From the NCBI RefSeq assembly GCF_009914755.1, contig NC_060935.1: a stretch of DNA of 64,000 nt, one strand, 5' to 3'. Made by a program: the position numbers and the translations under genes. A model generated the notes under the pieces. The model was not told the origin of the DNA. It did not search any database and saw only the letters and a list, made by a program, of their open reading frames with translations. The DNA comes from the human T2T-CHM13v2.0 reference genome, Homo sapiens. Shown here in pieces: positions 7,457 through 11,277 of the stretch; within the stretch, counting starts at the first letter, position 1, and each line of letters opens with the position of its first letter.

Positions 7457-7904
7457 CTTTAAAGCCCTTGAAACCTTTTCTGATTTTACCCTTCCCCCAG
7501 TCATTTGTTATTTCTTTCTTCTTTACAATCATATATATTATTGATCCTCTCTTATGAAGCTTATATTCTATCTTACATTATGTAATTGTCTTATTTTCTT
7601 TCCATAGCTTAGTGGGAGACTGTGAGACTAGCATTTAAGGTTTTGTACAGAGTACCAGCAGCATGATAGTTCTCCCCAGACAGCATAGCATTCAAGTCGC
7701 CTGAGCCTCATTCTTCCACAGAGGCTATGGCTTGTAAATCAGTATACTCAAAGTCCTCTGATACTCCAGTCAATAGACAGAAGATCTATGGGCCATTCAA
7801 AACATTGTTTTTAAAGAAATCTTTTGGTGTAACAAAAAATAATACAAGTCTCCTTTATTTATTTATTTCTTATTTATTTTCATGGATATGGATGTAGTGG
7901 ATAG

Positions 7905-8105
7905 AATGGTTTTTCTTTCTTGAAATGTCTTTATCTGGTGTCGATGTTAGGTTAATGCTGGCCTCATGGAATGCTTCTATTTCCTGGAAAAGATTGAAGA
8001 TAATTGGTACCATTTCTTCCTTGAATGTTTGGAAAAATCCACGGGTGAAACCCTCTGGTCCTGGATGCTACTCCTTTTGGAATGTTATTGGTTATTTATT
8101 TAATT
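7905..8105 (-). mobile_element. Old L1M (L1MC/MD-like) ORF2 fragment, proximal part of the transduced flank
   Basis: Reverse complement aataacattccaaaaggagtagcatccaggaccagaggg...ccagataaagacatttcaagaaag corresponds to the PGPDG...KPDKD region of ORF2. Confidence 0.75.
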
Positions 8106-8106
8106 A

Positions 8107-10341
8107 TTTTATTTTATTTTTATTTTTATTTTTATTTTTTTTCATTTATTATTATATTTTAAGTTTTAGGGTACATGTGCACAACGTGCAGGTTAGTTAC
8201 ATATGTATACATGTGCCATGCTGGTGCGCTGCACCCACTAACTCATCATCTAGCATTAGGTATATCCCCCAATGCTATCCCTCCCCCCTCCCCCAACCCA
8301 CAACAGTCCCCAGAGTGTGATGTTCCCCTTCCTGTGTCCATGTGTTCTCATTGTTCAGTTCCCACCTATGAGTGAGAATATGCGGTGTTTGGTTTTTTGT
8401 TCTTGTGATAGTTTACTGAGAATGATGATTTCCAATTTCATCCATGTCCCTACAAAGGACATGAACTCATCATTTTTTATGGCTGCGTAGTATTCCATGG
8501 TGTATATGTGCCACATTTTCTTAATCCAGTCTATCATTGTTGGACATTTGGGTTGGTTCCAAGTCTTTGCTATTGTGTATAATGCCGCAATAAACATATG
8601 TGTGCATGTGTCTTTATAGCAGCATGATTTATAGTCCTGTGGGTATATACCCAGTAATGGGATGGCTGGGTCAAATGGTATTTCTAGTTCTAGATCCCTG
8701 AGGAATCGCCACACTGACTTCCACAGTGGTTGAACTAGTTTACAGTCCCACCAACAGTGTAAAAGTGTTCCTATTTCTCCACAACCTCTCCAGCACCTGT
8801 TGTTTCCTGACTTTTTAATGATTGCCATTCTAACTGGTGTGAGATGGTATCTCACTGTGGTTTTGATTTGCATTTCTCTGATGGCCAGTGATGGTGAGCA
8901 TTTTTTCATGTGTTTTTTGGCTGCATAAATGTCTTCTTTTGAGAAGTGTCTGTTCATATCCTTCGCCCACTTTTTGATGAGGTTGTTTGTTGTTTTCTTG
9001 TAAATTTGTTTGAGTTCATTGTAGATTCTGGATATTAGCCCTTTGTCAGATGAGTAGGTTGCAAAAATTTTCTCCCATTTTGTAGGTTGCCTGTTCACTC
9101 TGATGGTAGTTTCTTTTGCTGTGAAGAAGCTTTTGAGTTTAATTAGATCCCATTTGTCAATTTTGCCTTTTGTTGCCATTGCTTTTGGTGTTTTAGACAT
9201 GAAGTCCTTGCCCATGCCTATGTCCTGAATGGTATTGCCTAGGTTTTCTTCTAGGGTTTTTATGGTTTTAGGTCTAACATGTAAGTCTTTAATCCATCTT
9301 GAATTAATTTTTGTATAAGGTGTAAGGAAGGGATCCAGTTTCAGCTTTCTACATATGGCTAGCCAGTTTTCCCAGCACCATTTATTAAATAGGGAATCCT
9401 TTCCCCATTGCTTGTTTTTGTCAGGTTTGTCAAAGATCAGATAGTTGTAGATATGCTGCGTTATTTCTGAGGGCTCTGTTCTGTTCCATTGATCTATATC
9501 TCTGTTGTGGTACCAGTACCATGCTGTTTTGGTTACTGTAGCCTTGTAGTATAGTTTGAAGTCAGGTAGTGTGATGCCTCCAGCTTTGTTCTTTTGGCTT
9601 AGGATTGACTTGGCGATGCGGGCTCTTTTTTGGTTCCATATGAACTTTAAAGTAGTTTTTTCCAATTCTGTGAAGAAAGTCATTGGTAGCTTGATGGGGA
9701 TGGCATTGAATCTGTAAATTACCTTGGGCAGTATGGCCATTTTCACGATATTGATTCTTCCTACCCATGAGCATGGAATGTTCTTCCATTTGTTTGTGTC
9801 CTCTTTTATTTCCTTGAGCAGTGGTTTGTAGTTCTCCTTGAAGAGGTCCTTCACATCCCTTGTAAGTTGGATTCCTAGGTATTTTATTCTCTTTGAAGCA
9901 ATTGTGAATGGGAGTTCACTCATGATTTGGCTCTCTGTTTGTCTGTTGTTGGTGTATAAGGATGCTTGTGATTTTTGTACATTGATTTTGTATCCTGAGA
10001 CTTTGCTGAAGTTGCTTATCAGCTTAAGGAGATTTTGGGCTGAGACGATGGGGTTTTCTAGATAAACAATCATGTCGTCTGCAAACAGGGACAATTTGAC
10101 TTCCTCTTTTCCTAATTGAATACCCTTTATTTCCTTCTCCTGCCTGATTGCCCTGGCCAGAGCTTCCAACACTATGTTGAATAGGAGTGGTGAGAGAGGG
10201 CATCCTTGTCTTGCACCAGTTTTCAAAGGGAATGCTTCCAGTTTTTGCCCATTCAGTATGATATTGGCTGTGGGTTTGTCATAAATAGCTCTTATTATTT
10301 TGAGATACATCCCATCGATACCTAATTTATTGAGAGTTTTT
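8107..10341 (-). mobile_element. 5'-truncated L1PA2/L1PA3 (3' ~2.2 kb with patterned A tail)
   Basis: 3' UTR ending at 8151, patterned tail 8107-8150; gctagatgatgagttagtgggtgcagcgcacc is PA2-like while other sites are PA3-like. Confidence 0.97.
8355..10310 (-). CDS. LINE-1 ORF2p C-terminal fragment (part of RT plus C-terminal domain); open frame but 5'-truncated and non-autonomous
   Basis: 651-aa ORF with [17 protein letters not shown] (RT catalytic FADD), [18 protein letters not shown] and the native end SLIGGN; lacks endonuclease and promoter. Confidence 0.9.
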
Positions 10342-10370
10342 AAAATAAATAAGAAATAAATAAATAAAGG

Positions 10371-11146
10371 TGAAAAAAACTACACACTAGTAACTCTTAT
10401 GAACATAGTTGCGAAATTTCTCAACACACTATTAGCAAATGGAACCCAACAATTTACTTAACAATATTGCACAGCTAATTGAGCTTTATTCCAGGTATGA
10501 AAGTATGCATGGCAGGTCCAATATTAGTTAATCAATCAATGGAATTTGGCACATTAACAAACTGAAACAGAAATCATAAGATCATATCAATATATACAGG
10601 AAAAGCACTGACAAAATTTAGCACCCATTTATGATTAAAAAAACAAACAAAAATTTAAAAAAAGTCTCTCAGAAATCTAGGGCCAGGGGGACCTTGTTCA
10701 ACTTGATAAAATACCCTATAGCTACCATCATACCTATGGTGAGCAACTGGATGTATTTCTCCTAATATCAGCAATAGTGCGATAATGTCTTCTCTTACTT
10801 CTCCTAGTCAATACTATGCTGGAGTATCTAGTTAGTGCATTAAGGTAAGAAAAGAAAAGAAAACTCAGTTTACATGCTTGATGTTCTTCTCAAACACCCA
10901 TGAAATCAGTCTAATTATGAGAAAAACATCAGGCACATGCTAATGGAGTAATATTCTATAAAACATTTGAAGATTACTCAATACTATTGAGGTAATCAAA
11001 AACAATGCCAGAGAAAAGTATAGCCAAGAAAAGCCCAAGAAGACATGACTATTTCATGTAATGTGGTAACTTAGATGATATTCTGGAACAGAGAAAGGAT
11101 ACGAAGAAAAAACTAAGCAAAGCTAAATAAACTATAGCCTTTAGTT
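10371..11146 (+). mobile_element. Old L1M ORF2 fragment joined to an L1MC/MD-type 3' UTR, distal part of the transduced flank
   Basis: gaaaaaaactacacactagtaactcttatgaacatag corresponds to ENYRPISLMNID; ctaattatgagaaaaacatcag...ttctggaacagagaaagga...aataaactatagcctttagtt is an L1MC/MD 3' UTR that stops just after its internal AATAAA. Confidence 0.75.
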
Positions 11147-11277
11147 AAAAAAAATAAACAAGTCATATTTTATATATATGCTGTTACTTATATTTTATAA
11201 TACCTGGCTGGTGCTTAGCCTTGCCTCTCTGAAAATCTTGGTTCTAGAAGTGCATAAAAGGAAAGAGAGGATCTTTT

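What the first reader, a model, noticed from the sequence alone, without database searches (positions are those of the whole stretch)
7834..11164. Hidden single event: L1PA2/3 with a ~1 kb 3' transduction whose twin-priming inversion point lies inside the transduced genomic flank
Seen in the sequence: (1) the minus-strand L1 at 8107-10341 has no evident TSD of its own; (2) a near-perfect direct repeat brackets the whole 3.3 kb, aaaaaataatacaagtc (7834-7850) and aaaaaataa-acaagtc (11149-11164); (3) the right copy is preceded by AATAAA (11126-11131) and an A run starting at 11147; (4) 7852-7880 is the exact reverse complement of 10342-10370 (29/29); (5) two heavily diverged L1M ORF2 pieces (7905-8105 minus, ending at a KPDKD-like motif; 10371 onward plus, starting at an ENYRPISLMNID-like motif) become co-oriented and consecutive if 7852-10341 is flipped. 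Established knowledge: L1 read-through gives 3' transductions, and twin priming gives 5' inversions with small deletions or duplications. Inference: the RNA was L1-poly(A)-flank-AATAAA-poly(A), equal to revcomp(7852-10341) + 10371-11146. The second primer (target end ...agtca pairing with 'tga' after aaagg) annealed in the transduced flank, inverting the L1 itself. Standard annotation would miscall this as three independent repeats with the wrong insertion orientation.
Basis: partly seen in the sequence, partly recalled or inferred. Interest (0 to 1): 0.85.

Follow-up and report, generated by a model that had tools for sequence, protein, structure and literature searches.

The report
Twin-primed L1 carrying chr18 flank
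A 3.3 kb stretch that looks like three separate repeats is one old L1 insertion that carried about 1 kb of chromosome 18 sequence and was half-flipped as it integrated; this is a clean example of known mechanisms, not a new one.

Summary
Window 7834-11164 is one retrotransposition unit. It is flanked by a 17/16-nt target-site duplication; 0 of 60,565 controls score as high. A 29-nt stretch occurs twice in opposite orientation, 29/29 identical.

The decisive test was run. Both non-L1PA pieces have a single close relative in the genome, at chr18:67538054-67539081, 96-97% identical; the next best hits are 72-73%. On chr18 the pieces are collinear and contiguous, and the 29-mer occurs once.

Chr18 is the parent. 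Old-L1 family members stay collinear with it across both block edges. The chr11 copy stops 17 nt after an AATAAA, followed by an A-run and the duplication.

The geometry matches twin priming with a 29-nt cDNA overlap located in the transduced flank.

Caveat: the 16 kb of chr18 examined holds no L1PA. The block starts at an intact TT|AAAA site, so the source L1 is inferred to be lost.

Block divergence (2.8%) matches the L1's distance to its nearest copies (97%).

Inversion breakpoints inside transduced sequence are already reported (PMC13009371). This is a new member of a known kind, of modest interest.

The parts
7834..7850 (+). Left copy of the target-site duplication (AAAAAATAATACAAGTC).
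   Evidence: 0 of 60,565 offset-matched controls reach its match score.
7851..7851 (.). Single junction base T. It is neither target nor parent sequence; the parent would give A.
   Evidence: It is the only mismatch in the 32-nt inverted repeat (pair I1).
7852..7880 (-). Inverted copy of the 29-nt overlap. This is the start of the internally primed (inverted) cDNA.
   Evidence: 29/29 reverse complement of 10342-10370. Present once on chr18, as a 25-mer.
7881..8110 (-). Transduced flank, part A (230 nt), matching chr18:67538054-67538283. It is old L1 ORF2, residues about 471-530.
   Evidence: (8 mismatches in 221 aligned).
8111..8142 (-). The L1's own A-rich tail, 32 nt, patterned as A8 followed by (TAAAAA)3 and TAAAAT.
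8143..10341 (-). 5'-truncated young L1PA: ORF2 codons 616-1275 (frame open) plus the 3' UTR.
   Evidence: 674-aa open frame at 8355-10379 on the minus strand; matches ORF2p 616-1275, 28 of 660 residues differ (my count from the printed alignment); best other genomic copies are 96-97% identical.
10342..10370 (+). Direct copy of the 29-nt overlap. This is the 5' end of the poly(A)-primed (non-inverted) cDNA.
10371..11148 (+). Transduced flank, part B (778 nt), matching chr18 up to 67539081. It contains old L1 ORF2 from about residue 528 onward, then a further old repeat.
   Evidence: (20 mismatches in 773 aligned bases; indels of 2 and 3 nt).
11126..11131 (+). AATAAA polyadenylation signal used by the read-through transcript. 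The block ends 17 nt after it.
   Evidence: AATAAA is present at this column in 3 of 3 other family members; the present chr18 allele has a 3-nt deletion there.
11149..11164 (+). Right copy of the target-site duplication (AAAAAATAAACAAGTC). Its A6 is the only visible A-tail.

Best explanation
One L1 retrotransposition event, roughly 8-13 million years old.

A young L1PA once sat on chr18 just upstream of position 67538054, inside an old L1 ORF2 relic. That source L1 is inferred, not seen. Its transcript ran past the L1's own weak poly(A) signal. It continued for about 1,030 nt into the flank and was polyadenylated about 17 nt after an AATAAA inside that flank.

L1 endonuclease nicked the chr11 bottom strand at 5'-TTTTTT/G, and the T-run primed cDNA 1 on the poly(A). 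cDNA 1 copied only the last 807 nt of the RNA (window 10342-11148).

The second target end (...ACAAGTC) then primed inside the same RNA, just after the 29-nt stretch. cDNA 2 copied leftward through flank part A, the L1 tail and 2.2 kb of L1, as far as ORF2 codon 616. Joining the two cDNAs placed cDNA 2 in inverted orientation. That is twin priming. The 29 nt copied by both cDNAs are now present twice.

Shown: the parent locus, collinearity, the direction chr18 to chr11, the block edges, the target-site duplication, the overlap and the age. Inferred: the source L1 on chr18, and the order of the priming steps.
For: 1. Unique parent. For both flank pieces the only close match in the genome is chr18, at 96-97%. 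The next best matches are 72-73% (41 matches listed, 40 of 1,166 first-look candidates scored; 40 listed, 40 of 246 scored).

2. Collinearity. On chr18 the reverse complement of 7851-8105 maps to positions 12060-12307 of my merged stretch, and 10342-11146 maps to 12285-13080. They overlap only in the 29-mer, which is single copy there.

3. Direction. Unrelated copies of the old repeat stay collinear with chr18 across the left edge (2 of 2 copies) and the right edge (L003 and L004). Chr18 is therefore resident sequence and chr11 holds a bounded excerpt.

4. RNA hallmarks. The excerpt ends 17 nt after an AATAAA, followed by an A-run and the duplication. The chr11 nick site is TTTT/G, one of the three endonuclease motifs scored in PMC12016303 (passages).

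5. Twin-priming geometry. The 3'-most copied RNA position abuts the left duplication, and the overlap is repeated at the internal junction. A germline cDNA overlap is reported in 42% (44 of 106) of inverted L1 insertions (PMC12016303 passages).

6. One RNA molecule. Both chr11 copies of the 29-mer share a 4-nt unit that chr18 lacks.

7. Youth. The 29-mer is 29/29 and the duplication 16/17. If the two copies were as old as the old L1, the chance of no substitution in the 29-mer is about 1e-5.

8. Concordant ages. The block differs from its parent at 28 of 994 aligned sites, 2.8%. The L1 is 96-97% identical to its best genomic matches.

9. Source site. The block starts at ...ACATT|AAAATAATT. TTAAAA occurs at only 5 of 2,001 nearby positions, and only 24 of 174 A4-run starts are preceded by TT.
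Against: - No L1PA homology in the 16,001 nt of chr18 examined. The source element is therefore inferred, and needs an allele that was later lost.
- The present chr18 allele lacks the AATAAA (GCTAAAACTATAG). A later 3-nt deletion has to be assumed, although 3 of 3 family members support AATAAA as the ancestral state.
- The visible terminal A-run is only 8 nt. Two of those belong to the parent sequence and six to the duplication, so there is no independent poly(A) tail.
- Base 7851 (T) does not fit the simple primer-pairing model.
- The 29-nt overlap is longer than the reported quartile range of 4-17 bp.
- Orthologous sites in other primates were not examined.
Confidence: 0.8

Rival explanations
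1. Template-switch chimera. A polyadenylated chr18 transcript with no L1 upstream was used in trans by L1 reverse transcriptase. It was twin-primed as above. The second cDNA, on reaching the A-rich start of the block, jumped onto the poly(A) end of an L1 RNA and went on into the L1.
For: Chr18 carries no L1 in this assembly. The block edge is A-rich (AAAATAATTAAAT), which would favour a jump onto poly(A). L1 template switching and RNA chimeras are documented (PMC13174262 passages).
Against: It needs three uncommon steps: trans use of a non-L1 RNA, twin priming, and an end-on jump. In the chimeras described in the passages seen, the foreign RNA lies 5' of the L1 segment and no L1 tail between the two parts is mentioned. 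Here the foreign RNA is 3' of a complete L1 3' end with a 32-nt patterned tail. The edge has TT before AAAA, seen at only 14% (24 of 174) of A4-run starts.
Confidence: 0.1
2. Two or three separate events. A chr18-derived retrocopy inserted first. An L1PA later inserted into it, together with a local inversion and a 29-bp duplication.
For: The final layout could also be reached by inverting the segment from the L1 to the 29-mer after a collinear insertion. No tool here separates the events in time.
Against: The L1 has no duplication of its own. Its tail joins exactly the first base of the chr18 homology, which is a coincidence under this model and automatic under read-through. The L1 and the block have the same apparent age.
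Confidence: 0.04
3. The old L1 pieces are resident chr11 sequence. Either an ancient twin-primed old L1 was later hit by an L1PA, or the structure is a local inversion.
For: Both pieces are heavily decayed old L1 ORF2, which by themselves look like old residents.
Against: They are 97% identical to chr18 but only about 70-73% identical to every other family copy. The 29-mer (29/29) and the duplication (16/17) are far too well preserved for an old event. The block ends inside the old repeat, whose relatives continue past that point.
Confidence: 0.01
4. DNA-level templated insertion, such as replication template switching or break repair, that copied chr18 DNA and an L1 into chr11.
For: Inverted segments with short overlaps also arise in replication-based rearrangements (recalled, not tested).
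Against: The copied block ends 17 nt after an AATAAA, followed by an A-run. The unit is flanked by a 16-17-nt duplication at a TTTT/G site. The L1 is joined through its own poly(A) tail. All of these are marks of an RNA intermediate.
Confidence: 0.03

Closest known systems
L1 3' transduction (partnered)
   Same: The L1 3' end with its own tail is followed, in the same orientation, by unique sequence from another locus. That sequence ends at a downstream AATAAA plus an A-run. The target-site duplication encloses the whole unit.
   Different: The parent locus has no L1 in this assembly. The L1 and a quarter of the transduced sequence lie inverted relative to the rest.
Twin priming (5' inversion of L1 insertions; Ostertag and Kazazian 2001, recalled; that paper is not held)
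   Same: Two cDNAs from one RNA lie in opposite orientation. The poly(A)-primed one is not inverted. A short stretch is copied into both, and the unit is flanked by a duplication at an endonuclease site. Reported in 18-22% of L1 insertions (PMC12016303 passages).
   Different: The internal priming point lies in the transduced flank, not in the L1, so the entire L1 body is inverted. The 29-nt overlap is above the reported quartile range of 4-17 bp.
Inversion breakpoints in transduced sequence, from long-read tumour and germline data (PMC13009371, passages seen)
   Same: That paper reports 5' inversions in 16% of orphan transductions, and breakpoint clusters in the downstream transduced sequence of some source L1s. 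This is the same class of event.
   Different: Those are somatic or polymorphic insertions with known sources. This one sits in the reference assembly, is millions of years old, and its source is missing.
Ordinary twin-primed L1 in the same window (4429-4869)
   Same: An inverted 5' piece and a direct 3' piece with an A-tail, flanked by a duplication of about 14 nt.
   Different: Both of its breakpoints lie inside the L1, with about 420 nt missing between the pieces, and it has no transduction.
L1 chimeric insertions with other RNAs (U6/L1 type; PMC13174262, passages seen)
   Same: Two RNA-derived parts share one target-site duplication.
   Different: In those chimeras the foreign RNA sits 5' of a truncated L1. 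Here it sits 3' of an L1 with an intact 3' end and tail.

Membership tests
L1 3' transduction | The L1 3' end and its own A-tail are followed, in the same orientation, by non-L1 sequence. | tested here: met
   On the minus strand the order is L1 (10341-8143), tail (8142-8111), then chr18-derived sequence (8110-7852).
L1 3' transduction | The extra sequence maps to one parent locus elsewhere, and that locus is the ancestral copy. | tested here: met
   chr18:67538054-67539081 is 96-97% identical; the next best hits are 72-73%. Family members cross both edges on chr18.
L1 3' transduction | The extra sequence ends at a poly(A) signal followed by an A-tail. | tested here: met
   AATAAA at 11126-11131, homology ends at 11148, A-run at 11147-11154. 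The tail cannot be told apart from the A6 of the duplication.
L1 3' transduction | The target-site duplication encloses the L1 plus the extra sequence, not the L1 alone. | tested here: met
   Duplication at 7834-7850 and 11149-11164. No direct repeat brackets 8111-10341.
L1 3' transduction | The parent locus lies directly 3' of a source L1. | tested here: inconclusive
   No L1PA in chr18:67526000-67542000 of this one assembly. The site is an intact TT|AAAA. A lost allele cannot be told from 'never there' with these tools.
Twin priming | Two oppositely oriented segments that are consecutive parts of one RNA, with the poly(A)-proximal part not inverted. | tested here: met
   Collinearity on chr18 of the reverse complement of 7852-8110 with 10342-11148.
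Twin priming | The 3'-most RNA position of the inverted segment abuts the 5' duplication, with a small deletion or duplication at the inversion point. | tested here: met
   7852-7880 lies next to the duplication and is repeated at 10342-10370, 29/29. It occurs once in the parent.
Twin priming | Short complementarity between the second target end and the RNA at the internal priming site. | tested here: inconclusive
   The target ends ...GTC and the parent RNA reads GGUGA, so 2 nt (TC/GA) could pair. Base 7851 is then T where A is expected.
Twin priming | An endonuclease-type first nick at the poly(A)-primed end. | tested here: met
   The bottom strand at the left edge of the duplication reads TTTTTT/G. 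TTTT/G is a motif scored in PMC12016303. The opposite reading would need a nick at CAAGTC/A.
Template-switch L1 chimera (U6/L1 type) | The foreign RNA is joined 5' of a 5'-truncated L1 segment. This is my inference from the passages seen, which do not mention an L1 tail between the two parts. | tested here: not met
   The foreign sequence lies 3' of the L1 and is separated from it by a 32-nt tail. Description of the chimeras is from PMC13174262 passages.

The most novel reading that the evidence does not exclude
The chr18 site never held an L1. A free, polyadenylated chr18 transcript was twin-primed by L1 reverse transcriptase. The second cDNA then jumped end-on from that RNA onto the poly(A) tail of an L1 RNA. 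This would give an 'L1-tail-foreign RNA' chimera, the reverse order of the known U6/L1 type.
Probability: 0.1. Interest if true: 0.5.

Novelty: new member of a known kind. Interest (0 to 1): 0.3.

Why it matters
It is a fully traceable case in the reference assembly where twin priming started inside transduced flank. The whole L1 therefore lies backwards relative to the true insertion direction, and the transduced sequence is split to either side of it.

Catalogues that look for a duplication and a second poly(A) downstream of an L1 in its own orientation may miss such events, and so undercount old transductions. One such catalogue is the modified TSDfinder used for this assembly (bioRxiv 10.1101/2021.07.12.451456, passages seen).

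The locus also records a source L1 that no longer exists in this assembly, and a poly(A) signal that the parent locus has since lost. It sits in an intron of LINC02545, 39 nt from the exon at 11204-11243. No effect on that transcript was tested.

Tried and rejected
- A self-comparison of the window found no source copy of the flank pieces inside the 64 kb.
- A search of 16 kb of chr18 for the L1 found nothing.
- No third copy of either flank piece exists, so no sibling insertion or relay locus was found.
- L1 subfamily (PA2 or PA3) was not resolved. I can give only 28 of 660 amino-acid differences from the solved human ORF2p and 96-97% identity to the best genomic copies.
- I looked by eye for microhomology at the internal junction 10341|10342 and saw no complementarity between the two cDNA ends; it looks like a blunt join.
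- I considered the opposite reading, with the insertion on the minus strand and first priming at the 29-mer. I rejected it because the nick would be CAAGTC/A rather than TTTT/G.
- The Ostertag and Kazazian 2001 paper is not held.
- Two paper searches failed on term syntax and were re-sent.
- Whether this locus is already listed in the transduction tables of the T2T repeat preprint could not be checked.
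Full report
**What is in the sequence**

- A 17-nt stretch at 7834-7850 recurs at 11149-11164 with one base missing.
- 7852-7880 is the exact reverse complement of 10342-10370, 29 of 29.
- AATAAA lies at 11126-11131, followed by an A-run at 11147-11154.
- Between them lies a minus-strand L1 with an A-rich tail.
- None of the 11 direct-repeat families found in 7500-11500 brackets the L1 alone.

The flanking repeat is not chance. Its local score is 14.5.
- Among 60,565 position pairs at the same spacing elsewhere in the window, 0 reach it (maximum 11).
- Among 422 random pairs of 20-mers containing A6, 0 reach it (maximum 13.5).

**The L1**

The minus strand holds a 674-aa open frame at 8355-10379. 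Its L1 part aligns end to end with residues 616-1275 of the solved human L1 ORF2 protein (8sxt). By my count from the printed alignment, 28 of 660 residues differ.

The last 1 kb of the element is 96-97% identical to its best 39 other genomic matches; 40 of 7,596 first-look candidates were scored. It is a young, 5'-truncated L1PA. I did not test whether it is PA2 or PA3.

Its tail is 32 nt: A8 followed by (TAAAAA)3 and TAAAAT, at 8142-8111.

**The decisive test: a parent locus**

The window's genome could be searched.
- The 776-nt plus-strand piece (10371-11146) has one close relative, on chr18 at 67538309-67539079, 97% identical. Every other listed match is 66-80% identical and covers only part of the query; the next best by score is 73%.
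- The 225-nt minus-strand piece (7881-8105) has one close relative at chr18:67538059-67538283, 96% identical. The next best by score is 72%.

I fetched chr18:67526000-67542000. On it the two pieces are co-oriented, contiguous and collinear. They overlap only in the 29-mer, which occurs once there, as a 25-mer lacking one 4-nt unit.

The exact block is chr18:67538054-67539081, 1,028 nt. It corresponds to window 8110-7881 (reversed), the 29-mer, and 10371-11148.

Both chr11 copies of the 29-mer carry the extra 4-nt unit. That fits two cDNAs copied from one RNA.

**Direction of copying**

Chr18 is the resident copy.
- Unrelated members of the same old L1 family (about 70% identical) remain collinear with chr18 across the left block edge: L013 and L014, 2 of 2 aligned.
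- The same holds across the right edge for L003 and L004. L005 breaks off shortly after the edge.

The chr11 copy stops inside the old repeat, 17 nt after an AATAAA, and continues with A's and the flanking repeat.

That AATAAA is present in 3 of 3 family members. It is missing from today's chr18 allele through a 3-nt gap. The parent most likely had the signal and lost it later.

**Mechanism**

Read in RNA order, the unit is:
1. L1 from ORF2 codon 616 to its 3' end.
2. The L1 tail.
3. 230 nt of flank.
4. The 29-mer.
5. 778 nt of flank with AATAAA.
6. The A-tail.

In the genome, items 4 to 6 lie in direct orientation next to the right duplication. Items 1 to 4 lie inverted, with the 29-mer end against the left duplication. 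This is the layout expected from twin priming when the two cDNAs overlap.

The first nick site on the bottom strand reads TTTTTT/G. TTTT/G is one of the three endonuclease motifs scored in a recent long-read survey. That survey also reports:
- inversions in 18-22% of L1 insertions;
- a cDNA overlap in 42% (44 of 106) of germline inverted insertions;
- a median overlap of 12 bp, with quartiles 4 and 17.

These figures come from passages of PMC12016303. The 29-nt overlap here is on the long side.

The second primer (...GTC) can pair with only 2 nt of the RNA. Base 7851 is a T that neither template explains.

**Age**

The block differs from its parent at 28 of 994 aligned sites (2.8%). Of these, 21 are transitions and 6 lie in CpG context. 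There are three indels of 4, 2 and 3 nt.

With per-lineage rates of 0.11-0.17% per million years (rates recalled, not from a call), this gives about 8-13 million years. The L1's distance to its nearest copies is of the same size, as expected if the L1 and the flank arrived together.

If the 29-mer copies were as old as the old L1, the chance of no substitution between them would be about 1e-5.

**What is not shown**

There is no L1PA homology in the 16,001 nt of chr18 examined, 12 kb upstream and 2.9 kb downstream of the block. The source L1 is therefore inferred.

The block begins at ...ACATT|AAAATAATT, an intact TT|AAAA endonuclease site in sequence that matches other family members without a gap. 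TTAAAA occurs at 5 of 2,001 nearby positions. Of 174 A4-run starts in the 16 kb, 24 (14%) are preceded by TT. The motif is therefore mild support for a former L1 insertion site.

A source allele that never reached fixation and was lost is the simplest reading.

**Rivals**

The main rival is a template-switch chimera: a free chr18 transcript, with the reverse transcriptase jumping onto the poly(A) end of an L1 RNA. In the passages of the L1 chimera paper that I saw, the foreign RNA lies 5' of the L1 and no L1 tail between the parts is mentioned (PMC13174262). This rival also needs more rare steps. I give it 0.1.

Nested independent insertions, resident old L1 pieces, and DNA-level copying each conflict with several results above. 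They get 0.04, 0.01 and 0.03.

**Comparison with what is known**

3' transduction and twin priming are textbook L1 behaviour. Inversion points within transduced sequence have been described. A 2026 nanopore study reports 5' inversions in 16% of orphan transductions, and breakpoint clusters in the downstream transduced sequence of some source L1s (PMC13009371, passages). A population survey classifies twin-primed insertions with deletions or duplications at the breakpoint (PMC12350158, passages).

This locus is a new, old and well-resolved member of that kind, not a new mechanism.

The T2T repeat preprint lists 183 high-confidence L1 3' transductions found with a modified TSDfinder (passages). 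I could not see its tables, so I cannot say whether this locus is among them.

**Verdict**

- Confidence in read-through plus twin priming is 0.8.
- Interest is 0.3.

Noticed in passing
window 4429-4869: A second, ordinary twin-primed L1. An inverted piece at about 4443-4686 is 98% identical to the studied L1. A direct 3'-end piece at about 4687-4846 is 93% identical and carries an A-rich tail. About 420 nt are missing between the two pieces. The unit is flanked by AACAATAGGGAGTG and AACAACAGGGAGTG.
   Followed up: partly
L010 / chr18:67539060-67539066 (merged-stretch position about 13062): The parent locus has lost its AATAAA through a 3-nt deletion. The chr11 copy and 3 of 3 other family members keep it.
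   Followed up: yes
window 7870-7910 with 10371-10400; chr18:67538240-67538330: In the old L1 relic, the ORF2 stretch around residues 526-530 appears twice: RKKNH in part A and EKNY in part B. About 50 nt lie between them, including the A/T-rich 29-mer. This looks like an old internal duplication or insertion that was already in the parent.
   Followed up: partly
window 11266-11482: The direct repeat AGAGGATCTTTT(T/C)TA at 11266-11280 and 11468-11482 brackets an Alu-like element. It is probably that element's target-site duplication.
   Followed up: no
window 11164-11243: The insertion ends 39 nt from the LINC02545 exon at 11204-11243 (minus strand), on that exon's intron side. No effect on splicing was examined.
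   Followed up: no
window 35521-37717 and 57202-58772: Older L1 copies, 92% and 76% identical to the studied L1.
   Followed up: no
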